Source of the DNA: an uncultured virus (IMG/VR IMGVR_UViG_3300028840_008159)
Lineage: Duplodnaviria > Heunggongvirae > Uroviricota > Caudoviricetes
IMG/VR virus record: IMGVR_UViG_3300028840_008159
Reading direction: 5' to 3' (one strand)
DNA: 64,000 bases
Part shown: positions 11,149 through 48,264 of the stretch, piece by piece
Layout of the letters: each line of letters starts with the position of its first letter
Position numbering within the stretch: position 1 is the first letter of the stretch
Translations under genes and position numbers: made by a program
Notes under the pieces: generated by a model
The model's database searches: none
What the model saw: the letters and a program-made list of their open reading frames with translations, nothing else
Told to the model about the DNA's origin: nothing

Positions 11149-12229
11149 GTCGCAGGCGCCCGGTCCGGTTCGAGCCCATCATCGGGTTCGGGGACCAGTC
11201 CATGTACTTCAGCATGAGGATATCCCCAAAGAAGCCGTCCCCGATGGACGACATGTTCGTCGCCGTCGCGATCTCCTCATACCGGGCGGCCGACGTCGTC
11301 GAGCGCGTCTTTGAGAGTCCGATGCCCCACCTCAAGATCATCATGTTCGAGTCCATCTCCGGAAGGGTCGCGTCCCGTTGAATCCAGGGAGTCATCCATG
11401 AGCTTTCCGATCCAGGTTTACTTCAGGATGGGCGGCCTATACCACGGGGAGGTCCGGATCGTCGTCGGCAAGCCGAACGGCTGCGTCCTCGACGTCCGGC
11501 GCCTGTTCCCCATCCCGCAAGCGGACGATCCATCCCCGTTATCGACCATCCTCGGACGGAACCCGTGGGGCGCGTGGATCAGGGAGCAATGGAGTCAGCA
11601 TCAGCAGGACGTGATGGGGGACGTGTTTGGGCCGAGCCTGCATCGCGTCAGGACCGTGCCACACGCGCGACTCCCCATGGCGCTGAGCCTTTTCCTCCTT
11701 GACCAAGCCCCCGATAGGGATTACGTTGGGGTTCATGAACATGAGGAAACATATCGGCTTCGCGAGCGCCTGGAGGATGGAGCGCGACGATCCGTTTCCC
11801 GTCTTTAACTTCTACTGCGTCAAGCAGCAGGGTCAGGGCCAAGGCGTCGTCAGCGACAAGGAATGGGACGTCATGGGGATGCTCCCGATACGCGTATCCC
11901 TCCCGTTCCCCCACGACGAGCCATGGTCCCGCGCCTGGATGAGATGCTTCGGGAACGGCATAAACATCGCCCACCCATGGTATCACGGACCGCAAATCGG
12001 AACCTCGTCCGATGAAGGGTGAAAAAACGCGAGCGCCCCTGACGGGAGCCATCGTCAAACAGGCCACGAAGAAGGCCAGGGATTCCATCCCGTCCGACTG
12101 GAAGAAACCCTACTGGCCCCCCGAATGGTCCTGGCCGTGGCTCGGGATAAGGCGCGAATCAGACAGGGAAAGCTGCCCGCGAGCAATAATAATAATAGGT
12201 GGGATGAGGCCGAGCGCTTTCGGACGGGG

Positions 12230-12258
12230 AGGCCCCTCCGGGGGGTGTTCGGCGGTAT
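12230..12258. repeat. 29-bp exact copy of 50520-50548
   Basis: AGGCCCCTCCGGGGGGTGTTCGGCGGTAT at both loci. Confidence 0.9.
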
Positions 12259-12306
12259 ATATTAGGGGCTTGCCCGAACTGACCTGCTGCGAGGGAGGAA
12301 TCGACG

Positions 12307-12579
12307 ATGGACAAGCGAGACCTGAGGGTCGGGGAGATCGTCCAGCTCAATCCCGAGACCACCAAGAACAAGGCCTTCGCCGGCTGCCTCATGGTCGTCA
12401 GCGAGCCCAAGTCCTTCGGCGCCCAGGGCTACGTCCAGGCGCTAGGGGAGTCCCGCGACGACATGGGCGGCCAGGCGTACTACAGGGCCTCCTGGGACGA
12501 GATGGAGGAGACCGGCGGCTCCGCCCCCTGGCTGATCGGGAGCGCCTCCGAGGAATGCATTTCACGGAGCGGAGATTAG
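12307..12579 (+). CDS. small phage protein
   Basis: GGAGG RBS; GEIVQLNPE...FAGCLMVVSEPKSFGAQGYV. Confidence 0.8.
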   Translation: MDKRDLRVGEIVQLNPETTKNKAFAGCLMVVSEPKSFGAQGYVQALGESRDDMGGQAYYRASWDEMEETGGSAPWLIGSASEECISRSGD

Positions 12580-12825
12580 CGGATGAGGTGCGTAAACTGC
12601 GAGGATGAGTTTAAGATCAAGGAGCCTGTCCTACCGGAGATATCGACGATGATTCGCCCGAACGATGTTCCGTTATGCGTGCGGTGCCTTTGCAGGCGGG
12701 AGATGCGGTGGCTGAAGTTCTGGCATTACGTGCAAGTAATCTGCTTCTGGCTTCTCATCGCCTTGTTCATCCTCGTGCCTATAATAGCGCGCATACGAGG
12801 ATGATCGGGAGCGCCTCCGAGGAAT
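12533..12825. repeat. 24-bp direct repeats flanking an inserted low-GC gene
   Basis: TGATCGGGAGCGCCTCCGAGGAAT at 12533-12556 and 12802-12825. Confidence 0.9.
12583..12804 (+). CDS. small CxxC plus C-terminal transmembrane protein
   Basis: CVNC...CVRC and hydrophobic tail; GGAG RBS; lies between the direct repeats. Confidence 0.65.
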   Translation: MRCVNCEDEFKIKEPVLPEISTMIRPNDVPLCVRCLCRREMRWLKFWHYVQVICFWLLIALFILVPIIARIRG

Positions 12826-15979: not shown

Positions 15980-16249
15980 ATGACCGACGCCCTCCCCGCG
16001 ATGCGCAAGCGCATGCTCTCCTCGTACCACCGGGTCTCGGTCAAGGCCGGCTTCGTCAGGAACGGGACCGTCCGCAGGATGGGCGCCTGGCAGGACGACT
16101 TCCTGTCCTACGTCCTGGACTACTACAGGCTCCCCTTCACCATCCCGAAGGGACGCGATCTCAAGGACTGGCAGGTCAACATGCTCGTCAGGAACCAGGT
16201 CGCCGCCCAGATGGTCGACGCCAGGGAACGCACGTGGGAGGACCGTTAA
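15980..16249 (+). CDS. hypothetical protein, paralog of 20651-20911
   Basis: shares DALP..R..MLSS...WQ..F...VLD...LP.T.P....L..WQ...QV.AQM with 20651-20911. Confidence 0.7.
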   Translation: MTDALPAMRKRMLSSYHRVSVKAGFVRNGTVRRMGAWQDDFLSYVLDYYRLPFTIPKGRDLKDWQVNMLVRNQVAAQMVDARERTWEDR

Positions 16250-16252
16250 GAC

Positions 16253-16486
16253 ATGAGGACGACGGGTAAAGAGAAAAAAGACCTGTACCTGCTGGTCGGG
16301 AACGGGACCTACCGGCAGGACTCCTGGCTCCTCAGGACGTCGAGGCGACCCTTGCTCCTCGGACAGGCGATCAAGGCCGTCGAGGACAAGGTCGGGCTGC
16401 GGGGAATGGATCGCTCCTCGGCCACCTTCGACCTGGTGGCGGTCCAGCCCGAGCTGGCCCTGGACATCGACGAGCCAAGCGAGTAG
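16253..16486 (+). CDS. hypothetical protein, paralog of 37814-38017
   Basis: C-terminus LVAVQPELALDID vs LVAVEPELALQID. Confidence 0.7.
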   Translation: MRTTGKEKKDLYLLVGNGTYRQDSWLLRTSRRPLLLGQAIKAVEDKVGLRGMDRSSATFDLVAVQPELALDIDEPSE

Positions 16487-16860: not shown

Positions 16861-17166
16861 TTACTGAATCTTGGCCCATTCGATGCCGCGTTCGCGGGCT
16901 TCCCTCGCCGTGATGTCTTCGTCTCCGGCCCCGAACGTCGTGGATGGCTTGATGGGAGCGCCCGGGAAAAACGTCCAGACGATCTCCTCCGTGCCAGTCA
17001 CGTTCCCCTCCTCGTCCTTGATCTCGTGTGGCCCAAGAAGCAAGACCGTATAGCCCACGTTCGGCAAGCCGCCCGGGACGTCATCCTTGGAAACGATGGC
17101 TGACTGCCCAGATCCCGACTTGACCGTGCGCAATTGGACGGGCGTATTCGGCGGTAACTGGGCCAC
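16861..17166 (-). CDS. hypothetical phage protein
   Basis: 101 aa; TVLLLGPHE...VWTFFPG; GGAGG RBS supplied by the 48-bp copy. Confidence 0.7.
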   Translation of the reverse strand: MAQLPPNTPVQLRTVKSGSGQSAIVSKDDVPGGLPNVGYTVLLLGPHEIKDEEGNVTGTEEIVWTFFPGAPIKPSTTFGAGDEDITAREARERGIEWAKIQ

Positions 17167-17173
17167 CTCGATC

Positions 17174-17221
17174 CCTCCCTCGCCAACGATACCGCCGCGT
17201 TCGAGCCCGTTTCCGGCGTGG
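17174..17221. repeat. 48-bp exact reverse-complement copy of 57145-57192
   Basis: CCTCCCTCGCCAACGATACCGCCGCGTTCGAGCCCGTTTCCGGCGTGG. Confidence 0.92.
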
Positions 17222-18624: not shown

Positions 18625-18706
18625 AAGGCGTCCTCGCCGCGTCGGCCACGGCCACCCAATGGCGTAAGGCGTCCTCGCCGCGTCGGCCACGGCCACCCAA
18701 TGGCGT
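18625..18706. repeat. perfect 41-bp tandem duplication
   Basis: AAGGCGTCCTCGCCGCGTCGGCCACGGCCACCCAATGGCGT x2. Confidence 0.92.
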
Positions 18707-20163
18707 ATCGCGGCCCGGTACATCGGGTGGCCCCGCATCATGATGACCCCCTCCACTTGATCGAGAACGACCCCGCTAACCCCCGACAAGTCCGGCAGCG
18801 CCCTCGGAACATCCGCTGGCCCCGGCTTCGGGCCGTCAAAAACCACCTGAAGGGCGAATGATAGCCTCACGAGCCCTCCCCCGGCGGCGCGATCCACAGG
18901 CACGCCAGGCAGAAGACCGAGCAAGCCCCCAGCAGGTAGCTGACGTAATTGAACCCGCCCGCCCCCCGGGCGGCCGGCAACACCCCGATGACGAGGACGA
19001 CCAGCAACGCGCCCAGCATCTTCATCCTGAACCTCATGTCCCACCTCCTGAACCTCATGTCCTGCCGCCCTTCGCGTGCTTAATCCCCATGCGTCAATCC
19101 CCATGCATCAGGATGTATTCTTCCTTGTGGGAGCGCCAGTCCTCGGGTGGTCCCAGGAGCACCACCATCCTCCCTCGGTCTACCCTCTTGATGACGGCCC
19201 AGGGCGTCCCGTAACGATGCGACGTGGCCTTGACGATCATCCCGACGAAGGGAAAGACCGGCAACGGATCGGGCCAATCGACCTCCCAGCGCCTCATGTA
19301 GGACGAAAGGCATGGATCATGATCGTAGCTCACGGCGAACATCCGCGTCTGCCTCCTCGAACGATACCCTACCACGCGACGCGCCCAAAGCAAGCCTTGA
19401 CTCGGGCCCCGGAAGGGTTTATCGTCCGTCCATGAAGAAGAAGATACACATGATCGTGGAGGGACGCGCCTGGCGCGCCCTCCACGAGCCCGCGAGGGCA
19501 TCCATCGCGAGACGGTGGCGCACGGCGTCGTTCCCCCTCGACGTCCTCGCGGGCAGCATGCTGGATTTCGTCCGCGATCAGGGGGGGAAATGGCGAGCGT
19601 CATGAACATGCCGATGCGGATGCCGATGCGGATAAGGTGGTTCCTGGACGTGGCTTACTTCGGACCCGCCAGGCCGGCCGGCCCGTATCCGGCCAAGGCC
19701 ACCCTGCCCGTCAAGACGTTCGTGGCGTATCACGTCCTGATCCGCATGGGCTTGTCCCCGACGTGGGTCCTCAGGGCCGGCCCTGGTCGTCCATTCCCCG
19801 GGATTCAACGGAAACCATGAACTTCAAGGTCGATGGCCACATCCACGTGGGGCTCGACGCCGTCCCCGACCGCGATACCATCGTCTGGCGCATGCACGTC
19901 TTCGCCAGGGACCACTCGTCCAGCGTCGACCTGTCCCTCGGACTCCTCCGCTGCTCGGCCAGCGCGTATTCCCAGCTCATTAGAGGGTGGGGCTCCCACG
20001 GGCGGCGGCGGCGATGGAACGTGGCGGGCTCGCAGTTCATGTCGGCCTGGGCGGGATACATGATGATCGAGTGGTCGCAGCCTCGGCAGGGCGCCCCCAA
20101 GGGCTTCAAGGAACCATGGAAACCGGGCCTCCTCCCGGCCGCCATGGACCGGAGGGTCAGGAA

Positions 20164-20451
20164 ATGAAAGACGCCTCAGCAATCCCATCAGGCCCCTATT
20201 GCCACGGCAAAAGCCTCGGTGACGTCTGCCCGTACTGGAAACTCCTGCCAGATAGACCCGAACAATACAACGGGTGGTGCGATTTTTTGGGGAAAGGCGA
20301 TATCGAATTGGGTGGCGAAAAGGAATTAGAGAACGTGGATACGGGGGAGAAGGCGAAGGGATCCGAATTCGGTTTTCCCGTCAGTCTTCTGTGGGACCAA
20401 TGTAAAGAATGCGGAATCAACGAGGACGAGGACGAGGGAGCCCAGGAATGA
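20164..20451 (+). CDS. Cys-rich phage protein, low GC
   Basis: IPSGPYC...CPYW...GWCDFL...LLWDQCKECGIN. Confidence 0.75.
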   Translation: MKDASAIPSGPYCHGKSLGDVCPYWKLLPDRPEQYNGWCDFLGKGDIELGGEKELENVDTGEKAKGSEFGFPVSLLWDQCKECGINEDEDEGAQE

Positions 20452-20650
20452 CCGACCAAGACGACGCCTTGTCCTTCGGCATCCCCTTCTTCCTGAGGCA
20501 GCGCGTCAGGAACCACTGCCGGGAGGACGTTAGATTCTTCCGACGCGCCTGGATCGCCTGGGCCACGAGGACCGGATCACAGTCCTTGAGCCACCGCCCC
20601 CTGATACCGGTCCTCTGGCCAGCCGGCGAGACGCGGCCCCCGCGACCCCG

Positions 20651-20911
20651 ATGAACCCCCCGATCGACGCCCTCCCCCGCATCCGCAGGGGCATGCTGTC
20701 GTCCTTCCGGGCGATCCTCCTGAAGTTCGACCCCACCCTCCGGACCGCCTTGCGCTCCTGGCAGAACAGGTTCGTCATCCACGTCCTGGACCAACACGAG
20801 CTCCCCTACACCTTCCCGACCGACCCCGAGCTGGAGAGCTGGCAGGCCAGGGCCATCGTCGGGGAGCAGGTCGTCGCCCAGATGATCGAGTCCAAGGGGA
20901 CCAAGGGATGA
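20651..20911 (+). CDS. hypothetical protein, paralog of 15980-16249
   Basis: visible end-to-end similarity; ATGA overlaps. Confidence 0.7.
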   Translation: MNPPIDALPRIRRGMLSSFRAILLKFDPTLRTALRSWQNRFVIHVLDQHELPYTFPTDPELESWQARAIVGEQVVAQMIESKGTKG

Positions 20912-21858
20912 ATCGACCGATGGAGCTAAGGTGTCGCCTGGGATACGCTTACTTCGGCCCCGTCATCGACGAACCGCGCCCGTCAACCCTCAGGCTCCGG
21001 CCCGTCAAGGCGTTCGTGGCGGTCGCGATCCTGACCCGCATGGGGGGTATCGTCCCCGGTCCCCGACGTGGATCATCCGGGGTGTTGGCTGGGTCGACGG
21101 TCCCCTTTACATGTCCGCCCTTCACATTTCGGGCGCTGTAACGCGAGGTGGAACCGCATGAAGTGCGGGAAGGCGTCCCAGAAACGACGGTGGTCGATAT
21201 TCCATCTCCAGCGAACGCACATTACGAACGGCATGGCGGCTTTCCGCTCGAGCGGCAGCCTGTGGTAATTAACGACTATCTGGTGCCTGGCGATGGTTCC
21301 CGCCATCCGGAGCTTCTCCAACACGCCAGTTGACGTCATGAGTCCCTCCCCATGGACGCCTTGACCGAGCTATCCATGGCCTCGAGGTCGATGTCGATGA
21401 TCCTCCTCGACAGGCGCATGAGGGAGCGCCTCTCCAGCAGCCGGGGGAGGCTGTCCCGGAACCACGGATCGCCGATCAGCTTGGCGTAAGCCCGGTGACG
21501 CTGGGCGTGATGGAGGTTCAGCGTGTCCAAACCTAGCCCCTCGAGGCAGACATGATTCCGTCTTCCGTCCTGAGGATCCCGAAAGACGGGTTCTGGAAGC
21601 TGTTCCAGGCGCCGTCGACCTGCCTCCATTCGACGGACTGGATTCCCGACCACAAACGGGGGGCGTAGCCGATCTCGCTGGTATAGTCCTCGTTGGATGC
21701 TCCTCCGTGGGAAATGACGAACTTGGCGTACCCGGCCCTGATCGGACGCCTAACGACACGCTTCCTCGCCATCGGTTCCTCCTATTCGCCGCAAAACCTA
21801 CCCTCTGGAGAACACGATTTCCAGCCCAAAACCCGAACACGACACGTATGATGCACTC

Positions 21859-23139
21859 ATGGAACTGGTCTTCTGGCAACGCGATGACGTGATCAGGATC
21901 GACTCCGAGGACGCCGAACGGCTCGGCCTCGACCTGGCAGATGGTGACGAGGCCTTGTGGAAGGCCGGATGGAGGGTCGCAAACTCTTCCAGCGGACTTG
22001 CTTACCTGAAGCGATCACGCGGCAGAAGGAGCGTCCCCGCGCACAGGGTAATCGTCGGCTTCTGCGACAAGGACGGCAATCGACTCGAGGGATGCGAGAA
22101 TTACGTCGTCGATCACGTCGACGGGGATGGTCTCAACAATACCCGGTCTAACCTCAGGATCGCCAACGCGCGGATGAATAGCATCAATAAAATCGCGTAC
22201 CGACTACGGATGGGCGACGGATCCGTCGAGGGCTACGCCAAGAGGCTCCACGCGGCGAGGGTCGACGAGGGCAAGGCGGAGCGGGCGCTTCGCCTCGCGA
22301 GGGAGCAGACGTTCGCTTGCGAGGCCGAACTGGACATGGCCGCCTCGAAGAAATGCGGATTGGACGTTGATGACATCAAGGCCCTGAAGAGCTCCCTCCT
22401 TCCCGAACCGTCCAAGAAAGTGGCGGGGACGGGGGATTACGAGCCAAGGAAGGACGACCCCCGTCCCGTGCCCAAGGTTCCCAAGCCGGATTTGGCCCAG
22501 CAAGAACTCAGGAACGTCTACCGCGAGAAAAGGGAGCTGGAAGCCATCCTGTGCGTCCTCGCGCCCGTCCAGATGCACGAACAGAGGATACGGGAGTCCA
22601 ACCGCAGGAAGGACGCCGATCCTGCGGGGATGAGGCTCGCGGAGAAGATAAAGGCCATTCGAACGGGCAACCTGCCGTCGTTACCCCTACCCCAAAAACC
22701 AAAGCCGCGTCGCTATTCTAGGCCCAAATACGAGAGCATCAGGAAGCTCCTTCGCGAATCGCCCGAATTATCTAACCAGGAGATCGCCCGTCGGGTTCCC
22801 GCGACCCCTTCTTACGTGTCACAGGTTGCGGCGCAGCTCAGGAAAAAGACGGCCTCCAAACCCAAACCCGTTACCGAACTCAAACCCGTTACCGAAGCCC
22901 ATGTCCTGGAGCGAGTGCGCAAGCTGCGTCAGCTCATAGACCGTGACCGTTCGAAAAGACGGCGAACGACCTTTTTCTGGGACTCGTACCGGGAAAAGAA
23001 GTTGCGCCGGTTGCTCGATGGCGGCCAGTTCGCGGAGGCGAACGAGTTGTTGGATACAGCGGCGGGAGACTACCGGCGCGGGCCGAAGTACGTCCAGAGA
23101 GCCCGTGAAGTACTAAAAAACAAGGGAAAACCCGTGTAG
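21859..23139 (+). CDS. HNH-endonuclease-domain protein with C-terminal HTH-like region
   Basis: AHRVIV...VVDHVDGDGLNNTRSNLR (phage HNH signature); LSNQEIARRVPATPSYVSQV (HTH-like). Confidence 0.75.
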   Translation: MELVFWQRDDVIRIDSEDAERLGLDLADGDEALWKAGWRVANSSSGLAYLKRSRGRRSVPAHRVIVGFCDKDGNRLEGCENYVVDHVDGDGLNNTRSNLRIANARMNSINKIAYRLRMGDGSVEGYAKRLHAARVDEGKAERALRLAREQTFACEAELDMAASKKCGLDVDDIKALKSSLLPEPSKKVAGTGDYEPRKDDPRPVPKVPKPDLAQQELRNVYREKRELEAILCVLAPVQMHEQRIRESNRRKDADPAGMRLAEKIKAIRTGNLPSLPLPQKPKPRRYSRPKYESIRKLLRESPELSNQEIARRVPATPSYVSQVAAQLRKKTASKPKPVTELKPVTEAHVLERVRKLRQLIDRDRSKRRRTTFFWDSYREKKLRRLLDGGQFAEANELLDTAAGDYRRGPKYVQRAREVLKNKGKPV

Positions 23140-23385
23140 GGTACCCTCTCGGCCCCCAAAATTTAACGATTTACAGAAACTACTTTTCCCTAATTCTTTC
23201 AAACTGGCTCTACACAATCGTGTTCAGCTCGCTGGACATCAGTAAATCTCTAATGGCCCGGGGCTTCCAAGACCGTACACGCGTTACGTTCTCGTGGTAG
23301 CGTTCGAGCTACAACCCAGGTTGAAGACCCCTCATGGCCCTACGATGTAGAACTTCTTGGGGTCATCCGCAGGTAGAACCTGGGC

Positions 23386-23510
23386 ATCGGCGACGGATCG
23401 GCGACGGATCGGCGATCGCCGGCATCGGCGTTCGGCGTTTATCCCCGATCGGCGTTCGGCGTTACCGGCGTGTCGGCGTCCGGCGTATCGGCGTTCGGCG
23501 TGTCCGGCGT
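23386..23510. repeat. low-complexity CGGCG(T/A) repeat tract
   Basis: about 15 CGGCG cores as ATCGGCGACGG, TCGGCGTT and CCGGCGT units. Confidence 0.85.
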
Positions 23511-23654
23511 TTACGGAATTCCTGATGGGTTTACGGAAATCCTAATGCATTAGGGTTTTCTTAATGACGTCAATCGCCAATCCGCCAGATCGTCATTGAT
23601 CCATGAAGGAAAACGACTACGCGGTCGCGAATCTGGCCGTTGGAGGGCCGAACC

Positions 23655-24239
23655 ATGGAAGAAGACACGAGGCAGGCTTGGCGTCGACTCGTCGGCCGAT
23701 GTACTCGGCCTGGGTATGACGGTTATCATGGTGCCCCGATCTGCGGACGATGGCTGAGCTACGACGCGTTCCTGGAGGACATGGGCCGGCGACCCAGCAA
23801 GTGGCATCGCCTCGGCCGGGTGGACAAGGCGCGCGCGTTCGAGCCGGGCAACGTTGGCTGGGTGGAGGATGGCATCCCGTTCGAGGGGACCCGGCTGACC
23901 GTGGCCGAATGGGCCAGCCGGTTAGGCCTCGAGAAGAACACCCTCTGGATGAGGCTCAAGAAACGATGGCCCGTGGAAAGGGCTTTCTCCAAGCCCGTTC
24001 GGGGTTCCCGACGGGGAATCCATGCCCGGAGCATGTGGGCCCTCCGAGTGGACGGGGAGGCGGACGGGGTGACCTTCGAGAAACAGCTATCGAATCCCTA
24101 CGGCAACATGATGGAAGCGGTAATGGCCTGGCGCGCTCTGGTAAGTCGTTGCCTGGAGAAGGGTTATAAATGCAAGTTGGAGTTGATGAGGAGATCCCCG
24201 GAGGAGGATGACTGGGTTCGGGTCATTTCCTACCCCTGA
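23655..24239 (+). CDS. degenerate HNH-like plus HTH phage protein
   Basis: ICGRWLSYDAFLEDMGRRP...LGRVD...FEPGNVGW, with the usual DRIDN/NCRW residues altered; TVAEWASRLGL..NTLWMRL; GGAGG RBS before 23655. Confidence 0.7.
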   Translation: MEEDTRQAWRRLVGRCTRPGYDGYHGAPICGRWLSYDAFLEDMGRRPSKWHRLGRVDKARAFEPGNVGWVEDGIPFEGTRLTVAEWASRLGLEKNTLWMRLKKRWPVERAFSKPVRGSRRGIHARSMWALRVDGEADGVTFEKQLSNPYGNMMEAVMAWRALVSRCLEKGYKCKLELMRRSPEEDDWVRVISYP

Positions 24240-24340
24240 ACGGTCGATTTGCGAGAACGTTAGTTCAGGAGCTTGATTTCATAAATCCTGAAATGTCAAC
24301 GTGTAGGGAGATCGCCAACTAACGATTCCCCGCGAGAACG

Positions 24341-24440
24341 TAAGTTCAGGCACGGTCGAGGAGATCCTGACACGCCCACGAAGAAAGAGACACGGCCAGT
24401 CGAGATCAGGCACGGCGACCGAAAATCAGGCACGTCGGAC
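24341..24440. repeat. five GRCACG boxes at an exact 20-bp period (iteron-like)
   Basis: CACG at 24351, 24371, 24391, 24411, 24431; three units read TCAGGCACG. Confidence 0.85.
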
Positions 24441-24583
24441 AGGCTGATTTCCTGGCCGGGTCGGGGACAAGAAATCTTATGTCCTGCCTGATGGGCGAAG
24501 GGGATTTTCTCGAGGGAGCTTGTCAGGAAAGGACGTTTCGGGCGTATATATAGGTTTGCCCTCGAAAACGCGGCGTCGCGGGG

Positions 24584-24602
24584 ATGTCAACCGGGTTGAC
24601 AT
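24584..24602. promoter_or_regulatory. palindromic operator-like site
   Basis: ATGTCAACC-G-GGTTGACAT perfect inverted repeat. Confidence 0.55.
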
Positions 24603-24942
24603 GGTCCGGGTCCTGGGATTGTCAAAATAACCCCTTTGGCCAATTGGATTTACGCGAAGTGAGCGGCTCACTGTGCTAGCCGGCGCGGTTCTGGATCGCT
24701 TCCTTCGCCTTGATCTGGGCTCTCGGATCGAAAAAACCTTTCCTGGAATTTGTCAGATAAAGCCCCTGGGCGCGTACGTACTATGGGGGTCTGTCCCAAA
24801 ATACGCCCATAAACCGCATGTGTCTCCGAAAGGCGACATGATCGTCTCCCGAACGATCGAAAATCCCTTCCTCTTTATTGTCCCGCGAGATTCCGGCCAG
24901 GTGGATCGAAGGCCCGACTAGGGTCGCGCAAGGAGAAAAACG

Positions 24943-25188
24943 ATGGCAACAGACCCGTTAGCTTCGCGTGCGCAGCCCAAGGCCGGGACGAAGGCTACCA
25001 TCAAAGCCATCGGGGATTTATCGCCGCGTCTTCGCGGGATTCTGGCGGCCTTTCCCGAGGAGTACAAGTTTGGAAAGCTAGGTTCTGCATGGTATTTATT
25101 CGCGGGGTGCAACCCCAATGACCCGAGGGAGGGTTCTTCCGAGGGGGGGTTGGGACTCCCTGGCGGAGGCGATCGAGTGCGTCCATGA
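24943..25188 (+). CDS. hypothetical protein
   Basis: AAGGAG RBS 26 nt downstream of element 24897. Confidence 0.5.
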   Translation: MATDPLASRAQPKAGTKATIKAIGDLSPRLRGILAAFPEEYKFGKLGSAWYLFAGCNPNDPREGSSEGGLGLPGGGDRVRP

Positions 25189-25213
25189 GGACATGTAAAA
25201 AAGGAGAGAAACG

Positions 25214-25531
25214 ATGAAGGCCACGGTGGTATACCCGCCATTCGATAAGGGCGATCACGAGAAGTTCATGAAGGTCGAGGTCGAGTCGGACGACCACGAG
25301 GCGGCCTGCGACGAGCTGTTCGCCCGGTTCAACCACGCCCATCCGGGCGTGACGGGCCAGGACGCGGAGGCGTTCAAGTGCCGGTCGATGTCGGTGGGCG
25401 ACATGGTGTGGTTCGCCGACAGGCGATTCGTGTGTTGCGGGGTCGGGTGGCGCGAGATCGACGAGAAGGAGTCGGACCGGATCCTGCGCATGGACTTCAA
25501 GGAGCGGAGCCTGGAGTTCTCGTTCGGGTAG
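25214..25531 (+). CDS. YodL-like domain protein
   Basis: LFARFN...RSMSVGDMV motif; AAGGAG RBS. Confidence 0.6.
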   Translation: MKATVVYPPFDKGDHEKFMKVEVESDDHEAACDELFARFNHAHPGVTGQDAEAFKCRSMSVGDMVWFADRRFVCCGVGWREIDEKESDRILRMDFKERSLEFSFG

Positions 25532-29108: not shown

Positions 29109-29819
29109 ATGCGTTTGATGATCCCCAACAACCCGGTTCGCGTGTCCGTGGACCTCCTCAAGGAGCTGGCCGAGGAGGACCGCGCCAGGTTCGCCAAGAA
29201 TCCTTCGGCCAAGCCGTCGAGGATCGCGGAGGACAAGTGGGACGGCTGGCGCCGGATCGCGTACAAGTTCCTTAACGAGGAAGAGGCGGAGAAAGCCCTG
29301 CATGAGTCGCTGGGCTGCTCCTCTGGCCGGTACGTGTTCCAGTCCAAGCACGGCGACGAGGCCAAGATCGCCATGCCGGACGACCTGCTCGACGAGTTCA
29401 AGGAGCTGTTCCAGGACTTCGACACGTTCGCGGTTGACATGGAATGGGTGGGTCCCCGGAACAAGGACGCGCTCGCGGAGACGTACGGGGAGAAGGACTA
29501 CCACGGATTGCGGTTGTTCAACCTGACCTGGCTCAACGGGCAGTACCTTGGGGCCAGGAGCAACGAGTACGAGAGATACCAGTCGCTCAAGACGATCTAC
29601 GAGCTATGCCGGGCCAAGCGGCCTCACGCGGCTCGCCGGATCGAGGTCGTTCGCTGCTGGGAGCATGATTGGGACGAGATGTTCGAGGAGAACAAGTCCA
29701 ACCCGTGTCTGGAGGGGATCGTGTTGAAACGGGCGGACTCGTTCCTGGTCAACAAGGACAAGAACCCCAAGTGGTTCAAGGTCAAGTACCGGGACATCAA
29801 GGAACCCTGCAAGTTCTGA
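29109..29819 (+). CDS. ATP-dependent ligase-family adenylation domain without OB-fold
   Basis: motif I EDKWDGWR, III DMEW, IIIa LFNL, IV EGIVLKR, V WFKVK; ends about 10 aa after motif V. Confidence 0.75.
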   Translation: MRLMIPNNPVRVSVDLLKELAEEDRARFAKNPSAKPSRIAEDKWDGWRRIAYKFLNEEEAEKALHESLGCSSGRYVFQSKHGDEAKIAMPDDLLDEFKELFQDFDTFAVDMEWVGPRNKDALAETYGEKDYHGLRLFNLTWLNGQYLGARSNEYERYQSLKTIYELCRAKRPHAARRIEVVRCWEHDWDEMFEENKSNPCLEGIVLKRADSFLVNKDKNPKWFKVKYRDIKEPCKF

Positions 29820-31870: not shown

Positions 31871-32191
31871 TCATTTCTCTTCCTCCTCTAGCTTCTCGAT
31901 GGTGTCCCAAATGACGCCGTTTCCGATGTCCCCGGTGACGTACTTGCCGAAGATGTCGATGGCCTCCGCGCCGGAGAGGTTCTCGTAGGTCCGGTGGCAT
32001 AGGCTTCCGTCAGGTCCGCCGTCCTCGTGCCAGACCTTGATGGTGAACCGGGTATGGCCCTTCTCGTCCCGGCCCAGGTACTCCACGCTCTCGACGTGGT
32101 TGCCGCCCGACTGGCAGTAGCCATGCTCCTCCCACATGTCCAGGGTGTGCCTGAATGCGTCGAGAAAGGCTTTTTTCACGTCGGCGTTCAT
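31871..32191 (-). CDS. hypothetical protein
   Basis: start re-picked at MNADVKK (GAGGAGG RBS, TGATG overlap). Confidence 0.7.
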   Translation of the reverse strand: MNADVKKAFLDAFRHTLDMWEEHGYCQSGGNHVESVEYLGRDEKGHTRFTIKVWHEDGGPDGSLCHRTYENLSGAEAIDIFGKYVTGDIGNGVIWDTIEKLEEEEK

Positions 32192-33237
32192 CAGTCCTCC
32201 TCGGCCTTGTACTTGAGTTGTTTCAGGGAGCAGTCCTCGATGTCGATGTCGTCCCGGACGCCAAGCAGGGTCGGCTGGTACAGGGAGCCGTTCTTGTAGG
32301 CGTACAGGTAGCGGACCTCGATGATCTCGTCCTCCTTGGGGATGGACTGGTTCGCGGGAACGGTCACGTTCCCGACGTTCACCATGTCTCCGTCCTCGTT
32401 CATCAGGAGCATCCCGACCGAACGCTTGCCCTTGCGCCCCTTGGTGACGATGCAGGAGCAGGTCGCGTAGAACTTGCATTTCAGCATGTCCCCGCCGGAG
32501 GCGGGGCGACCGGGCACGTACATGGAGTCGAGCTTCTTGAAGACGATGCCTTCCTTGTTCTCCTTCTTGAGCCGCTCGAACAACTCGCGCTTGTCCTTCT
32601 CCGTGACGGCCAGCGGGACGACCTTGACGCAGTGACCGAACTCGATCTTGGAGAGGTCAGCGTGTCGCTGCTTGCAGGTCTTCTCCTCCACGAGGTCGAA
32701 GGCGTGGAACACGTCGCCGATCATCTCGCCGTCGTAGTCGCCGTCCCACTCCAGGGACTCGACGACCGTCTCAGGGATGGCGACCTCTAGGCCCTTGCGG
32801 TTGGAGGCCGTGATGTCCGATCCCTTCCTGGAGATCATTATGTGTTTGCCGTCCTTCTTCTCCTGCGCCCCCCAGGAGGGGTCCTTGAGGTACTTGACGA
32901 CCTCGTCCTCGTCGATGGGGTTGAGGAGTTGCGGGACCATGCCCGTGACCTTCTTCTCCTTGGGGGTCCCGGTGTAGGGGGTCCCGGATTCGCCCTCGGT
33001 GTACCCCTTCGCCATCTTGGAGGAAACGAGCTTGTCGAAGATGTTTTCCGCGTCCTCAAGGGGCACGGGCGACTTGGTCTTGGTCCCGGTCTGGAGGGTG
33101 GAGCCGCGCCGACCGTACTGGAAGTTGACCACGTAGCCGGAGCCGTTCTTTTCCAGTTGGGCGTGGTACTCCTTGTCGGAGGTTCCGGCGCAGAAGTACA
33201 GGCTGACCGCTTTGATGACTTGGTTTGGCATCGTCAT
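32191..33237 (-). CDS. lig: ATP-dependent DNA ligase with N-terminal WGR domain
   Basis: WGR: SDKEY...QYGRRGS; motifs EKKDG, DGEMI, AFDL, EGIVFK, KCK; OB-fold EVRYLYAY...LYQP...RDD; start re-picked at MTMPNQ. Confidence 0.9.
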   Translation of the reverse strand: MTMPNQVIKAVSLYFCAGTSDKEYHAQLEKNGSGYVVNFQYGRRGSTLQTGTKTKSPVPLEDAENIFDKLVSSKMAKGYTEGESGTPYTGTPKEKKVTGMVPQLLNPIDEDEVVKYLKDPSWGAQEKKDGKHIMISRKGSDITASNRKGLEVAIPETVVESLEWDGDYDGEMIGDVFHAFDLVEEKTCKQRHADLSKIEFGHCVKVVPLAVTEKDKRELFERLKKENKEGIVFKKLDSMYVPGRPASGGDMLKCKFYATCSCIVTKGRKGKRSVGMLLMNEDGDMVNVGNVTVPANQSIPKEDEIIEVRYLYAYKNGSLYQPTLLGVRDDIDIEDCSLKQLKYKAEED

Positions 33238-37803: not shown

Positions 37804-38018
37804 CTCGGCCTCCTCAGTCGATCTGCAATGCCAGCTCCGGCTCGACGGCGACCAGCTCCCACGTGAGGGACTCCTCGACCGTCCAGCAATGCAGGTCGGG
37901 GTCCGCTACCCGGAGCAGCTCCACGGCCCGGTCGAGCGTCAGGTTCTCGCACTTGGTCTTGACGAGGAAGACGTCCTGGACCCCGCAGTTGGTGGCGATC
38001 AGCACCCAAAAGTTCATC

Positions 38019-39189: not shown

Positions 39190-39615
39190 TCATGCCGTGT
39201 AGACGAGCTTCGGATCGGACAGGGTTATCTTGACGAGTTGCACGAGCTGCGTTTTCCTTGGCCTCGGCCTCGGCTGCCCGGACAAGGAGAACGTCCCGCC
39301 AATGGACATGGCCACGATGTCGTCTCCCAGGGCGAATAGCTGACCATACGCTGTTAGTCGCACGGTGACGATATCTTCGAGCATGGAGAGATGGACCGAC
39401 TGGAAGACGTATATGTTGTTTTGGTGGGATATGGTAACGCAATCCCCCAGGAAGGAGTTCATCCCGATGGCGAGCGCGGAGAACGGGGATTCCGGGGTTT
39501 CCGCGTCAACGACGAGCCAGGTGGCCTTCGACGTTTTCGAATGGACGAAGATGTCCCCCGGACGGACGCCATGCCATTTGGACGCCCGTTCGCTGTTCTT
39601 CTTGCGCCTCGCCAT
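39190..39615 (-). CDS. hypothetical protein
   Basis: TGATG overlap with the VWA gene. Confidence 0.6.
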   Translation of the reverse strand: MARRKKNSERASKWHGVRPGDIFVHSKTSKATWLVVDAETPESPFSALAIGMNSFLGDCVTISHQNNIYVFQSVHLSMLEDIVTVRLTAYGQLFALGDDIVAMSIGGTFSLSGQPRPRPRKTQLVQLVKITLSDPKLVYTA

Positions 39616-42600
39616 CAGAGGCTCCCGACCATCTTGCTCAGGATATGCTCGACGATTTCCAGGGTGACGACGGGCAGTTCATCGACCTCGTTCAGGACGG
39701 AGGCGTGTTTGTAGAACTCGCGCACCCGTTCCTCGCCGATGCCCAACCCGTACAGGTACATGCCGTCCTTCTCCAGAGCCTCGGCCTTCTTGCAGACCGT
39801 GAACAGGTGTCGTTCCAGTTCCTCGATCTGGCTCAGGGGCGCGTTCGGCATCCCGTCGTTGAGGACGATCTGTATCTTCGTCTTCTCCTTGCGGCGTTCC
39901 AGCCGTTTCAAGCCCCACATGACCGCCTCTCCGTCGAGGTTGCAGGCCATGGAGAAGTCGCTGAAGATGTTGGACGGGGCGACGTTCTCGTTGAACTCCT
40001 TGAAGACGTAGCCTTGGTACGGGCAGAAGCGGCTGAACCTGTCAGGATCAACCCCGTCCATGTCCAGCTTCTTCGCGTCCTTCTCGTTCGTCGTGTGACC
40101 GATGATTTCATGCGGGATGCGCAACGCTCGCATGACCTCGCTCAGGCAGCAAGCGGCCTTCATCGCCAACTCGATCTTGCGTCCACACATGGAACCGGAG
40201 CAGTCCACTAGCAACTGGACGGCGACTCGCGGGTCTTTCTTGACCGTTATGGTTCGCCAGACGCGACGGACATCGACGTTCGCGCCCCGGAGGGCCAACC
40301 CCAACTTGTAGGCGTTGCGCGGGTCGAGACGACCTTCCTCGGCGTTTACCTTGATCCGGTTCTTCTCAGGAGACCAGAGCTTGCGGAGCCGTTCCGTCGT
40401 CTGAGCGATGACCTCGGCGTACTCGCGTCGGCATTTCTCGTACTTCTCCATCGCCCTCGGCGAGTCCTTGACCCGATCAACCTTGTCGTAGGCGCGGTCG
40501 TACGGGACGTACTTGCGAGCGGAGAGCGCGGTGATCGGGGCGGTGTCGACCTGACCCCCCTGCTCCCCTGAGTCCCGATGGACGCCCTCGCCAAGGACCT
40601 CAACGTCCAAGTCCTCCGCGACGGAGCGGTTGCGAACCTTCTCGATGGTCTCGTCAACGACTTGCTGCGTCACGTCCTTGCCGATGTTCTCGTCGTTCTC
40701 GCGGTCCATGTCGTGAATGACCTGCAAGATGTTGTCCCGACGCGACTCGGCGGTTTTGGCCTCCGCTTCCTTGGCCTCCGCTTCCTTGGCGAGCGGGTCG
40801 ATCAAGGGCTGGTAGTCTTCCATGATCCGTTGCTTGATCTGGCGTTTGCCTTCCTCGGACTTGGCCTTCGCCGCCGCTTCCTCCCGTTGCGCCTCGTCCA
40901 GCTTGACCTTGCGCTCGGCCAGTTCGCCCTCGGATCGCTTGAGGTCGTCTTCGGCCATGCCCATCTCGTCCTCTCGTCGTCCCAAGAGGCGTTCGTCGTT
41001 GTCGATGCGGTCCCGTAGGCGTTTGGCCCTCGCCGCAAGCTCGTTGGCTCGTTGACGGGCTGGATTGAGGGGTTCGCCCTCGCCCTCGACGACCTGACCG
41101 CCATCGCCTTCGACGGTCCCATCGCCTTGGCCCATGCCCTCGCCATGACCGTAACCCTGGCCATCGCCTTCGCCTTCACCCTGACCGGGTTGGCCCTGTC
41201 CAACGGCGTTTTGACCTTCGCCTTGGCCCTCGCCCTGACCGTCGCTAGGTTGACCTTGGCCCATGCCAGCTTGCTGGCCTTCGCCCTGACCGGGTTGGCC
41301 TTCGGCGTTTGGCTGTCCCTGACCCTCTTGGCCTTGGCCCTGGCCTTCGCCTTGTCCCTGACCGCCTTCGCCCTGTTGCTGGCCTTCCTGACCTTGGCCC
41401 TCGCCTTGGCCCTGACCCTGCTGCTGGCCCTGCTGCTGGCCCTGCTGCTGTTCAGGTCGAGCGGGGTTGATCCTTGCGCCTTCGGGCGGCTTGGGCTGCT
41501 GTTGGCGTTCCTTGGACTTCTGTTCGGCGTCTCGCGCTTCCGCTTCCCGCGCCTCGTCTTCGGCGTCTGCGACCTCGCGATCCAACTCACGAGCGCGTCG
41601 GCGTTCCTTGGCGAGTCGATCCCTGACTCGGCGAAGGTTCTGTTCTGATTGCTTCTCCTTCTCCTTCGCCTTCTCGACGGCCTTGCGGGACTCCCGCGCT
41701 TCTTCTTCCTTCTCGGCGCGTTCAGATGCCGCGTCCTGTCGCATCCTCTCTTCCAGCGAGTTGTCGTGTTCTTCCTTGGCCTTGCGCTCGGCCTCGTTCT
41801 TCATCCGGGCGTGGGCTGAGTGGGCGTTGTTGGCCTCCGTCCGGGCGTTCTTCGCTTCCTCGATCTTCTCCTTGGCTTCCTCGCCTGGGCGGTAGTCGCA
41901 AGGCAGGATCGGCAGGACGTTCAGGCGTTTGAGGTATTCCTTCGCCCGTTCGAGGGAGTTGGAAGTGGACTGCCCTGGAATGTCCTGCATGATCTGGTCA
42001 TGGATTGGCTTGTAGGGGTGATCCTTGTACTGCTTGTGAATGTCCTTGTCCTCGCCCTCTCGCCAGACGTAGAGCCAGAGGTGAAGGAAGCGCATGGCTT
42101 CTAGGCGCGTCCCTAGAGCCTTCAGGATGGTTTCCTCGTCCTTGTCGATGCCCAACCGCTCGGCCATGCCCTGCAAGAGGATGATGCCCATGCGGTAGAG
42201 TTGGTCGTCATCCAACCCTTCCTTCGCCATGAGGTCGCTGATTTCGGGTTCCTCGTATACCCAAGCCTTGTACTCCTTCTCCGTGAGTTGCAACTGGTTC
42301 GCGGCCATGCTCTTGCCGATTTCGATGACCTGCTTGCGCAGCCGCCCCTGGCTCAGGTACGATGCCTTCTCCAACGCCCCGAACAGGGTTTGGGTGTTGT
42401 CGGCCTTGAGATGGATCTTGTAACCCTCGTTCTGCGACTGGGTTAGCATCTCCTTGCCGCCTGGGAAGTCCCGACGCAGTTTCAACTCGATGCGTTGGTC
42501 CTCGAATGCGTTGCAGGCATGGAACACCATGTAGTCCTTGATGTCGATGAGCGCGTCCGGGTCGGTATACTTGACGTGACCCGCCTCATGGAGGGCGAAC

Positions 42601-42788
42601 CCCCGCAATACGTCAACGTCCTCTGCCTCCGCGTACTCCAGGTTGGGGAGGTAGATGATGGGGGGTTTGGTGTTCAGGACGGCGCAAATCTTGTCGCCGC
42701 GCATCCTGACCTCTACGCCCAACTGGTCATGGATCAAGTCGGCGAAGACCTGCATCCTGCATAGTCCGAAAATGTCGATCTGAGCCAT
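39615..42788 (-). CDS. CobT-like VWA protein (HExxH N-domain, coiled coil, Q/G/E linker)
   Basis: LHEAGHVKY...NAFEDQRIE; MIDAS DCSGS; LNDGMP; GIGE; GQGEGQ repeats at about 41090-41450. Confidence 0.85.
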   Translation of the reverse strand: MAQIDIFGLCRMQVFADLIHDQLGVEVRMRGDKICAVLNTKPPIIYLPNLEYAEAEDVDVLRGFALHEAGHVKYTDPDALIDIKDYMVFHACNAFEDQRIELKLRRDFPGGKEMLTQSQNEGYKIHLKADNTQTLFGALEKASYLSQGRLRKQVIEIGKSMAANQLQLTEKEYKAWVYEEPEISDLMAKEGLDDDQLYRMGIILLQGMAERLGIDKDEETILKALGTRLEAMRFLHLWLYVWREGEDKDIHKQYKDHPYKPIHDQIMQDIPGQSTSNSLERAKEYLKRLNVLPILPCDYRPGEEAKEKIEEAKNARTEANNAHSAHARMKNEAERKAKEEHDNSLEERMRQDAASERAEKEEEARESRKAVEKAKEKEKQSEQNLRRVRDRLAKERRRARELDREVADAEDEAREAEARDAEQKSKERQQQPKPPEGARINPARPEQQQGQQQGQQQGQGQGEGQGQEGQQQGEGGQGQGEGQGQGQEGQGQPNAEGQPGQGEGQQAGMGQGQPSDGQGEGQGEGQNAVGQGQPGQGEGEGDGQGYGHGEGMGQGDGTVEGDGGQVVEGEGEPLNPARQRANELAARAKRLRDRIDNDERLLGRREDEMGMAEDDLKRSEGELAERKVKLDEAQREEAAAKAKSEEGKRQIKQRIMEDYQPLIDPLAKEAEAKEAEAKTAESRRDNILQVIHDMDRENDENIGKDVTQQVVDETIEKVRNRSVAEDLDVEVLGEGVHRDSGEQGGQVDTAPITALSARKYVPYDRAYDKVDRVKDSPRAMEKYEKCRREYAEVIAQTTERLRKLWSPEKNRIKVNAEEGRLDPRNAYKLGLALRGANVDVRRVWRTITVKKDPRVAVQLLVDCSGSMCGRKIELAMKAACCLSEVMRALRIPHEIIGHTTNEKDAKKLDMDGVDPDRFSRFCPYQGYVFKEFNENVAPSNIFSDFSMACNLDGEAVMWGLKRLERRKEKTKIQIVLNDGMPNAPLSQIEELERHLFTVCKKAEALEKDGMYLYGLGIGEERVREFYKHASVLNEVDELPVVTLEIVEHILSKMVGSL

Positions 42789-42910
42789 TCGTTCCTTGCC
42801 CCTTTCGCCCCCAATGGGCGGGCCTTCGCGTTGCCTGGTCCATGAGGCACGCCGATCTCAAGGCGTCCTAGCGGGCCTTTGTTTCACCTGGAGCGACGAG
42901 GCACGCCCGT

Positions 42911-43219
42911 TCAGTTATGCCGGGATGATAGGAACTGGTGGAACCTCTCGACGACCTGGTCGATCTCCTCGTCTGACACGTCGCGGCCAAGCTGGCGCCG
43001 GATCTCGTCCCGCTGCGCATCCGTGGGCTTGAGCAGGCTTTTCTTGTCGATCGGGGGGATGCAGTGGATGCACACGATATCGTGCTCGCCGACCTCCTGG
43101 ATCTTCTCGAACGTGGCGGGGCTGGCCCAGACCTTGGCGTTGCATTTCGAGCATTCCAGGGGGACGGAACCCGGCGTGAGGGGTTCCAGGCCGCAGGCTA
43201 TGACGAGCTTGTCGCTCAC
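42911..43219 (-). CDS. small zinc-binding protein
   Basis: CSKC...CIHC; GGAGG RBS. Confidence 0.7.
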   Translation of the reverse strand: MSDKLVIACGLEPLTPGSVPLECSKCNAKVWASPATFEKIQEVGEHDIVCIHCIPPIDKKSLLKPTDAQRDEIRRQLGRDVSDEEIDQVVERFHQFLSSRHN

Positions 43220-43228
43220 GGGACCTCC

Positions 43229-46638: not shown

Positions 46639-46689
46639 TACGTTCTCCTCGGTCCAGTTGGCGGGCCTTCGTCTCGCCTGGTCATGTTA

Positions 46690-46717
46690 AGCATACGCCC
46701 TTACACGGCATTGTCAA
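46690..46717 (-). promoter_or_regulatory. sigma70-type promoter directly upstream of an element copy
   Basis: TTGACA-N16-TATGCT on - strand; CCAGG of element begins 8 nt after the -10. Confidence 0.7.
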
Positions 46718-47502
46718 CGCTTAAAGCGTCTCAGGAAATCATCGTCCAGCTTGCTGTCACGCTCCTTCGCTCCCTCTTCGAGTTCCTTGGCCATCTCCTC
46801 GGCGGACTTGAACTTGATCGGGCAGCTATCCAGAAGCTCAAGCATGAGCTTCACTTCGGGCGATAGCTCCTCGTCCTTCTCCTCTGCCCGTTTCGCCGCC
46901 CACTTCGTGAGGGTGGCCGTCATGAACGACATGAAGAAGGCAGAAAGGAGCGAGTCCTGGACTTGCTTTTTGTCGTCCTCGTCGAACCCCTGGACGTCGG
47001 GTTCCCCAAGGATCAACGTCCCGTCTTCCTTGCGCCCCGTGATCGGGATGGTCGCCAACGCCTCGCGGTCGTCGATGCTACGGGCGACGTTGACGATGAC
47101 CTCGACCCGCTCTGGATGCTCGGAGGGGGTGGGCAGGTTTTTCACGTCCTTCACCTCGTCCTTGTCGAGTTTCAGCGTCCAAGCCTCGCTCTGGAAGATC
47201 GCCATGAGGACCTTGAGGTCGTTGGCGGCTGCGGCGAGGCCCAGCTTGGCGAAGACGGCTTGCTTCTCGGCGTTCGTCCTCGGCATCCCGTCGCCCAGTA
47301 CGACGAGGACGACCTTGCGCTCTTGCGGACCCTCGTCCCCGCCGCAGACCAGGATCACGCGGGGGGCGTATTCCTTGATGTCGCCTTCCTCGACGGACTT
47401 GGTGACGAGGCCGACGTGGGTCTCGAACTCCTTGTTGAACTCCTCGGTCGGGAGCATCCACTCGGCGAGCTTGTTCTTCATCTCGTTCAACGGGTCGTTC
47501 AT
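46714..47502 (-). CDS. hypothetical protein
   Basis: 262 aa; SEAW...PSEHPERVEV; element at 47529. Confidence 0.8.
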   Translation of the reverse strand: MNDPLNEMKNKLAEWMLPTEEFNKEFETHVGLVTKSVEEGDIKEYAPRVILVCGGDEGPQERKVVLVVLGDGMPRTNAEKQAVFAKLGLAAAANDLKVLMAIFQSEAWTLKLDKDEVKDVKNLPTPSEHPERVEVIVNVARSIDDREALATIPITGRKEDGTLILGEPDVQGFDEDDKKQVQDSLLSAFFMSFMTATLTKWAAKRAEEKDEELSPEVKLMLELLDSCPIKFKSAEEMAKELEEGAKERDSKLDDDFLRRFKR

Positions 47503-47535
47503 CGGCGTTTTCCTTTCGAGTTCCTTGTCGGGCCT

Positions 47536-48018: not shown

Positions 48019-48264
48019 CTGTCGGCCTTTCTTACATCATGGTGAGCTTGTTTTCACGGATCGCGTATACGGCGATCAGGTTGTCCGGTCTATCGGCGTC
48101 CCAGATGAGAACCTGAGTGGCCAGGGCCAGGGCGTTCCCGATTCCCCCGACCTGCTCGCACCTGAGCCTAGCGGCTCGGATCAGGGTATCGTCGTCGAGG
48201 TCTTCTACCTGGACGTCATCCGTTGATCCCGTGGAGCGTCCGATCTGTACGGTTAGCTGATGCA

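What the first reader, a model, noticed from the sequence alone, without database searches (positions are those of the whole stretch)
12230..12306. Leader carrying an exact 29-nt antisense copy of a gene 38 kb away
Seen: 12230-12258 is identical to 50520-50548. There it lies inside the - strand gene 50448-50681; here it lies on + just upstream of gene 12307, so a + transcript would be perfectly complementary to that mRNA. The flanks are AT-rich (AATAATAATAAT, ATATATTA), and GTTCGG/CCGAAC can form a hairpin. A chance 29-mer match in 64 kb is very unlikely. Inference: a captured guide or antisense segment.
Basis: partly seen in the sequence, partly recalled or inferred. Interest (0 to 1): 0.72.

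Follow-up and report, generated by a model that had tools for sequence, protein, structure and literature searches.

The report
Gene snippets pasted into phage leaders
A giant uncultured phage carries exact 24-48-base copies of the middle of its own genes in distant DNA; these are most likely scars of rare short-patch recombination, although two of them lie just in front of genes in the orientation that could make an antisense RNA.

Summary
The 29-nt identity (12230-12258 = 50520-50548) is real, beyond chance (longest match in 120 simulated windows: 21 nt) and bridged by a uniform-depth contig. The window is an early-gene region of a ~547-kb phage. It holds two more exact copies: 48 nt (17174-17221, antisense, leader of gene 17166) and 24 nt (11823-11846, sense, in frame). 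Both leader copies form one arm of an imperfect hairpin, share CGGCGGTAT, and the two leaders look related. Best reading (0.55): short-patch illegitimate recombination (SPDIR-like) overwrote hairpin arms of an ancestral leader with ectopic pieces that resembled it. For: the sense copy, a further sense fragment in the same leader, a second assembly whose only difference in 20 kb lies inside the 48-mer, mid-gene ORFan targets, no repeat or effector. Against: 0 such copies in 700 kb of six control phages, both intergenic copies antisense, and the arm fits better as RNA than as DNA. No RNA data or close relative exists, so antisense function (0.22) is untested. This scan noted similar scars in other genomes (unchecked).

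The parts
12230..12258 (+). Copy A: exact 29-nt copy of 50520-50548; antisense to gene 50448-50681 if transcribed on +; 3' arm of a hairpin
12208..12229 (+). 5' arm that pairs with copy A; all five substitutions against the donor's sense strand give G-U pairs in a + strand RNA
   Evidence: RNA duplex -33.3 kcal/mol, matched by 5 of 12,730 sampled 29-mers; DNA -15.9, matched by 189 of 12,730
12256..12263 (+). TATATATT at the right junction: possible -10-like element or U-rich tail; with its flanks it resembles 24530-24566
   Evidence: function inferred only
12268..12295 (+). 24 of 28 match to the sense strand of gene 55015-55494 (55289-55262), same reading (PxLTxCEG): possible older captured fragment
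   Evidence: 0 of 500 shuffles of 12259-12306 reach the score; region chosen after the fact
12289..12309 (+). Ribosome-binding end of leader A; best match elsewhere in the window (15 of 16) is the end of leader B
12307..12579 (+). Gene behind leader A, 90 aa, PHROG 19062 (unknown function), widespread in unrelated viral contigs
12012..12608 (+). Open frame running through arm and copy A; coding-like only in its first ~40 codons
50520..50548 (-). Donor A: codons 45-54 of the 77-aa Cys-rich ORFan gene 50448-50681
17174..17221 (-). Copy B: exact 48-nt copy, antisense to gene 56897-57298, in the leader of gene 17166-16861; supplies a TATCGT -10-like hexamer and the Shine-Dalgarno GAGGGAGG; A>G at 17189 in assembly L019
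57145..57192 (-). Donor B: codons 36-52 of the 133-aa ORFan gene 56897-57298; shares 18 of 21 nt with donor A
17137..17157 (-). First codons of gene 17166-16861; imperfectly complementary to copy B and to copy A (15 of 17 nt, the only such match in the window besides the two copies)
16861..17166 (-). Gene behind leader B, 101 aa, no relatives found
11823..11846 (+). Copy C: exact 24-nt copy of 41425-41402 (Gln/Gly-rich part of gene 39615-42788), sense and in frame inside a weak ORF; lacks the shared core
41402..41425 (-). Donor C, in the low-complexity linker of the CobT/VWA-type gene
24530..24566 (+). Element upstream of the first + strand early gene that resembles 12241-12278

Best explanation
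Copy A is the scar of a short-patch illegitimate recombination (SPDIR-like, or a templated insertion during repair). Shown: it is an exact ectopic copy, it forms one arm of an imperfect inverted repeat, and it belongs to a web of microhomologies that links leader A, leader B, the start of gene 17166 and both donors. Inferred: leaders A and B descend from one hairpin-forming leader; single-stranded pieces of early genes that happened to resemble it annealed at an exposed strand and were built in, replacing 29 and 48 nt. The products were tolerated because they kept the hairpin (through G-U pairs), a -10-like hexamer and the ribosome-binding site. On this reading the antisense orientation follows from which donor strand resembled the leader, and any pairing with the early mRNA is a by-product.
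For: Three exact copies of 24-48 nt in one 6-kb accessory region, one of them sense and in frame; a further sense fragment inside leader A; local duplications of 24, 42 and 17 nt nearby. The best window-wide matches of copy A's 3' 17-mer, of donor A's 21-mer and of leader A's end all fall in the B locus or donor B, as expected if donors were picked by likeness to one ancestral leader. The only difference in 20,019 bases of a second assembly lies inside copy B and breaks both the shared 9-mer and perfect complementarity; donor B's protein has one member sequence. Targets are mid-gene in ORFans, not ribosome-binding sites. A 93%-identical relative of gene 12307 in run X3 aligns only from 12304, and none of 16 viral loci with a relative of that gene shares the leader. 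Size and mismatch pattern fit SPDIR as described (3 to about 100 bp, extended microhomologies with mismatches and gaps, hotspots at the most stable pairings: bioRxiv 10.1101/2023.11.22.568220, abstract, introduction and first results read; 10.1101/2024.07.02.601687, four passages). The window encodes a WGR-domain ATP-dependent ligase, so end-joining is available (inference).
Against: No isolated intergenic-to-mid-gene exact copy of 22 nt or more in 650 kb of five huge phages or 50 kb of a 59%-GC jumbo phage, against two in 64 kb here, so the process is not commonplace. Both intergenic copies are antisense and directly upstream of a start codon (2 of 2). The arm of A fits the copy better as RNA (top 0.04%) than as DNA (top 1.5%), which points to a hairpin that matters at RNA level. 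The ancestral acceptor sequence is inferred from the present flanks, which is partly circular. The 17189 change may be an assembly error at a repeat. SPDIR is very rare in wild-type bacteria and the search for SPDIR with phage listed only one review. Copy C lies in low-complexity sequence and could have another origin.
Confidence: 0.55

Rival explanations
1. Functional trans-antisense leader. The + transcript from the promoter at 10746 carries a hairpin whose 3' arm is the exact complement of an early mRNA; a 5-nt free tail starts pairing, the mRNA displaces the weaker G-U arm, and the 29-bp duplex is cut by RNase III or changes expression of gene 12307. Copy A could also pair with the first codons of gene 17166, and leader B would be shut by the mRNA of gene 56897-57298.
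For: Perfect duplex -69.5 kcal/mol against opening costs of 26.4 and 11.2; the last 5 nt are free (0.3). Arm-copy pairing is in the top 0.04% as RNA. Two mutually exclusive folds exist. Copy A pairs with the start of gene 17166 at -32.8. Two of two intergenic copies are antisense. Rare in control phages.
Against: No conservation or co-variation could be shown, as no close relative was found; the leader is not shared by relatives of gene 12307. Change inside copy B in L019. Targets are mid-gene. If TATATATT or TATCGT are the promoters, most of each copy lies upstream of the start of transcription (inference). In B the Shine-Dalgarno is paired with or without the target, so no simple switch follows. 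Sense copy C needs another explanation.
Confidence: 0.22
2. Promoter and ribosome-site capture. The copies matter as DNA signals: GGCGGTAT supplies the G-TANNNT -10 element used by this phage's host-type promoters, and in B also the Shine-Dalgarno. Selection kept those captures that switched on an orphan gene; the copied part upstream is untranscribed filler.
For: Local promoters read TTGACA-16-(G)TATCCT or (G)TATGCT at 10746, 15380 and 46700; the leader of gene 19342 has GGGTATCGT 24 nt before its start, B has GGTATCGT 25 nt before its start. The 17189 change hits a tolerant position of TANNNT (recalled consensus). It explains the shared 9-mer (chance about 0.012) and the fixed orientation.
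Against: No -35 hexamer at 16-18 nt for either copy. It does not explain the 5' arm of A. It needs the same capture step as the best explanation, so it adds to it more than it replaces it.
Confidence: 0.13
3. A dedicated, sequence-specific capture system (recombinase, reverse transcriptase or Cas1-like integrase encoded elsewhere in the 547-kb genome or by the host) writes target copies with a CGGCGGTAT core into a leader scaffold: a retargetable guide.
For: CGGCGGTAT occurs 4 times in the window, all within copies A, B and their donors; donors share 18 of 21 nt; lengths are spacer-like; the 48-mer contig has about three times the depth of its flanks, a weak hint of a third copy; the only variant base is an A>G in a copy.
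Against: No flanking repeats or target-site duplication. In B the 'scaffold' motifs lie inside the copied part. The core sits at different places in the two copies. No Cas, TnpB, IS110 or reverse-transcriptase family among 138 predicted proteins of the window. The scaffold pattern has 0 matches in the viral contigs.
Confidence: 0.08
4. Assembly artefact or chance.
For: All records may go back to few samples.
Against: Null maximum 21 nt; a contig of even depth crosses both junctions without differences; same sequence in L019.
Confidence: 0.02

Closest known systems
[quoted passage not shown]
   Same: Ectopic intragenomic pieces of tens of bases, exact copies of the donor, placed where acceptor and donor share gapped microhomology.
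   Different: Described in a bacterial chromosome with a selective reporter; here a phage genome, no ancestral allele in hand, several events clustered at related leaders.
Homeologous and very-short-homology recombination by phage annealing proteins (lambda Red, RecET; PMC2327257, eight passages read)
   Same: Explains patchwork phage genomes and exchange over 5-13 bp.
   Different: Usually swaps gene-sized modules between phages; no such annealing protein was identified in this window.
Trans-acting antisense RNAs of phages such as P1/P7 c4 (recalled; also named in earlier scan notes)
   Same: A phage RNA complementary to a distant phage mRNA.
   Different: c4 pairs through short loops with leader regions and is a conserved, processed RNA; here one long perfect match to the middle of a gene, buried in a stem, with no conservation or transcript shown.
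CRISPR spacer, or guide of a domesticated TnpB (TldR; PMC10705468, search listing only)
   Same: Spacer-sized exact copy of a target.
   Different: No repeats, no RNA scaffold and no effector gene in the window.
Diversity-generating retroelement template/variable repeat pair (recalled)
   Same: Two near-identical copies, one in a gene; the one variant seen is A>G.
   Different: Far shorter, no adenine-specific differences in the window, target not at the 3' end of the gene, no reverse transcriptase in the window.

Membership tests
SPDIR / templated insertion | Inserted patch of about 3-100 bp identical to an ectopic donor | tested here: met
   29, 48 and 24 nt exact; size range
SPDIR / templated insertion | Extended microhomology between donor and the original acceptor | tested here: inconclusive
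   Likeness to the adjacent arms and between leaders A and B fits, but the original allele is not in hand
SPDIR / templated insertion | Single-strand annealing at the replication fork, independent of RecA | not testable with these tools
   Needs experiments
Trans-acting antisense RNA | Complementary to a distant mRNA, with favourable pairing after unfolding | tested here: met
   29 of 29; net about -32 kcal/mol
Trans-acting antisense RNA | The antisense strand is transcribed | not testable with these tools
   No RNA holder listed; no sigma-70-type promoter at the site, the nearest + strand one is at 10746
Trans-acting antisense RNA | Pairing conserved or co-varying in relatives | tested here: inconclusive
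   No close relative with both sites; leader not shared by relatives of gene 12307; one change in copy B
CRISPR array or mini-array | Direct repeats flanking the spacer | tested here: not met
CRISPR array or mini-array | cas genes nearby | tested here: not met
   0 of 138 predicted proteins in Pfam scan; the other ~480 kb of the genome could not be seen
TnpB/IscB/IS110-type guide RNA | Effector gene next to a structured RNA scaffold | tested here: not met
   window only
Diversity-generating retroelement | Template and variable repeat differing at adenines, with a reverse transcriptase | tested here: not met
   Copies are identical to donors in the window; one A>G in another assembly; no RT

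The most novel reading that the evidence does not exclude
The phage keeps a family of hairpin leaders whose antisense arm is rewritten with exact copies of its own early genes, so that each leader senses or silences one early mRNA by strand displacement, like a natural toehold switch retargeted by short-patch recombination or by an enzyme encoded elsewhere in the genome.
Probability: 0.1. Interest if true: 0.8.

Novelty: new member of a known kind. Interest (0 to 1): 0.3.

Why it matters
As scars, the copies are a clean natural trace of short-patch illegitimate recombination in a jumbo phage and show how new leaders, promoters and potential antisense RNAs can arise in one step from a phage's own genes; that is of modest interest. 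If the copies act as RNA, they would be protein-free, retargetable antisense switches that time phage gene expression, with no described counterpart in the searches run.

Tried and rejected
No whole genome is held, so only 64 of about 547 kb were examined. No RNA holder listed: no evidence either way. Viral contigs: 0 matches for copy A (17), part of copy B (32), the early-leader motif and the A/B scaffold pattern; no relatives of donor A (21), the AAA protein (35) or gene 17166. Species genomes: 0 matches for copy B (58) or copy A (74), so no host spacer or host origin was found. Metagenomes: 8 loci for a 19-nt pattern; 1 (L019) is this phage, 7 are an unrelated coding context. Annotated phages: no DNA match, none for gene 17166, only distant protein relatives. 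Protein searches returned only the phage's own donor A, donor B and gene 17166; the second hit is a tandem-repeat protein and spurious; Atlas gave no usable family. So the direction of copying could not be tested on homologs. Rfam and tRNA scans were empty. Leader B folds no better than shuffles (z +0.5 to +1.5) and its upstream arm is unremarkable (307 of 3,177 as good), so I do not count it as a designed structure. Antitermination by the target mRNA was rejected by reasoning: the copy is the 3' arm and emerges last. Inversion or excision between the copies was considered: the swapped forms give no sensible genes. Window 18700-25500 was not covered by listed X1/X2 contigs, which proves nothing. 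In the control count, LR756501 was left out as a duplicate of LR756503 (same length and output), and one AT-rich 24-nt gene-edge match in LR756504 was not counted as intergenic-to-mid-gene; five of the six control phages have 24-40% GC and none is a relative. One search sampled every 10th (29-mers) or 40th (48-mers) position, and arm limits were chosen by eye, so its ranks are optimistic. Supplements of the two SPDIR preprints (lists of events and energies) could not be seen.

Full report
Setting. The window (62% GC) is densely packed with small unknown genes, most preceded by one conserved leader motif, and holds CobT/VWA- and AAA-type genes, two ligase-like genes and an HNH gene. Its proteins lie on contigs of up to 546,851 nt. 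I read it as the early and accessory region of a jumbo phage (inference). No whole genome is held.

Observation. 12230-12258 is identical to 50520-50548 over 29 nt, with unrelated flanks. The second copy is codons 45-54 of the - strand gene 50448-50681. In 120 simulated windows the longest distant exact match was 21 nt. A 45,496-nt contig crosses the site without differences and at even depth (X1 and X2 count once and may be the source), and assembly L019 agrees.

It is not alone. The window has three isolated two-copy exact matches of 22 nt or more. Copy B (17174-17221, 48 nt) is the reverse complement of 57145-57192; on the - strand it lies directly before gene 17166-16861, is antisense to gene 56897-57298 and supplies that leader's Shine-Dalgarno. 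Copy C (11823-11846, 24 nt) repeats a Gln/Gly stretch of gene 39615-42788 in sense and in frame. Leader A also holds 12268-12295, 24 of 28 like the sense strand of gene 55015-55494; 0 of 500 shuffles reached that score. In A and B the donor genes are intact and coding-like, and the swapped arrangements give no sensible genes, so copying most likely ran from gene to leader. No homologs were found to test this.

A and B are linked three ways. Copy A's 3' 17-mer has one other match of 14 or more in the window, 15 of 17 at 17140, the complement of the first codons of gene 17166. Donor A's 21-mer matches donor B at 18 of 21. The end of leader A matches the end of leader B at 15 of 16, including bases outside the copied part. 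CGGCGGTAT occurs four times in the window, only in the copies and donors; two random pieces of these lengths share a 9-mer in 1.2% of trials. The simplest history (inferred) is one ancestral leader, complementary to its own gene's start, that was duplicated and then overwritten at each place by the ectopic piece most like it.

Mechanism. That history matches SPDIR: ectopic single strands anneal at gapped microhomologies, are built in during replication and leave patches of 3 to about 100 bp (bioRxiv 10.1101/2023.11.22.568220, first third read), with hotspots at the most stable pairings (10.1101/2024.07.02.601687, passages). Phage annealing proteins recombine over very short or diverged matches too (PMC2327257, passages). 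In support, orientation is mixed once C and the 12268 fragment are counted; the region has several local duplications; the single difference between L019 and the window in 20,019 nt is at 17189, inside copy B, while donor B's protein has one member sequence; and gene 12307 has relatives in 16 viral loci and in a 93%-identical X3 contig, none sharing the leader.

Against an ordinary scar. In 650 kb of five huge phages and 50 kb of a 59%-GC jumbo phage I found no intergenic copy of a mid-gene stretch; the controls are unrelated and mostly AT-rich. Both intergenic copies are antisense and just upstream of a start codon. The arm of A pairs with the copy at -33.3 kcal/mol as RNA, equalled by 5 of 12,730 sampled 29-mers, but by 189 of 12,730 as DNA; all five substitutions give G-U pairs. 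Either an existing RNA hairpin tolerated only such a replacement, or the arm is there to shield an antisense sequence. Pairing with the target is feasible: -69.5 for the duplex against 26.4 and 11.2 to open the partners, with a free 5-nt tail. Nothing shows that the strand is transcribed. The sigma-70 scan finds no promoter at either leader, though both copies end in or contain a G-TAT motif like the -10 elements of nearby promoters, and B has the same spacing to its start as the leader of gene 19342; if these are the promoters, most of each copy is not transcribed from them.

Known guide systems. No flanking repeats or target-site duplications, no Rfam match, no Cas, TnpB, IS110 or reverse-transcriptase family among 138 predicted proteins, no match of either copy in species genomes and none of the scaffold in viral contigs. 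These tests cover the window only, 12% of the genome. The contig for the 48-mer has depth 77.8 against 24.6 and 20.8 on its flanks and 49.8 for a two-copy repeat, a weak hint of a third copy that I could not place.

Earlier notes. Two unchecked reports on other genomes (e1-215285, e1-939468) reached a scar reading for similar single copies; I held that reading before seeing them, and they are not support.

Verdict. Real and non-random. Most likely recombination scars at a pair of related hairpin leaders (0.55), perhaps kept because they supply promoter or ribosome signals (0.13); a working antisense leader (0.22) or a dedicated retargeting system (0.08) is not excluded and can be tested with the full genome, raw reads and a reporter. 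Literature searches (listings only, apart from the three papers named) showed no description of antisense copies of this kind in phage leaders. Interest 0.3.

Noticed in passing
window 5832-62738, about 30 sites: Conserved leader motif CCAGG-N6-CGAAGGCCCG some 20-40 nt before the start of most early genes on both strands; three tandem copies at 50242-50339. No match to one exact form in viral contigs. It is absent before genes 12307 and 17166.
   Followed up: partly
window 23380-23520 and 53037-53074: Runs of short TCGGCG/CGGCGT units in the long non-coding stretch 23140-25213, with a short related copy at 53037; the stretch also has two copies of GCGAGAACGTWAGTTCAGG (24251, 24332) and lies where gene direction and GC skew change: possible origin or packaging region.
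   Followed up: no
window 24520-24560 and 24715-24750: Two promoter-like elements with TTGTCA, a 19-nt spacer and TAYRTA upstream of the + strand early operon.
   Followed up: no
window 12533-12556 and 12802-12825: 24-nt direct repeat that brackets gene 12583-12804; the X3 relative of gene 12307 stops aligning at 12555, suggesting that the gene between is an inserted module.
   Followed up: partly
window 18625-18707: Perfect 42-nt tandem duplication; its contig has twice the flanking depth.
   Followed up: no
window 29109-29819 and 32191-33231: Two ATP-dependent ligase-like genes 3 kb apart, one with an N-terminal WGR domain; nearest annotated relative in Tunturiibacter phage Tunturi_5 at 33% identity.
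   Followed up: partly
window 39615-49662: Two CobT/VWA-type genes and two CobS/MoxR-type AAA genes in one cluster; the larger VWA protein has a long Gln/Gly linker.
   Followed up: no
window 15980-16249 / 20651-20911, 19590-19820 / 20908-21141, 16253-16486 / 37814-38017: Pairs of diverged paralogous small genes in the accessory region.
   Followed up: no
window 17174-17221: Depth of the 48-nt contig is about three times that of its flanks in X1 and X2, hinting at a third copy outside the window.
   Followed up: partly
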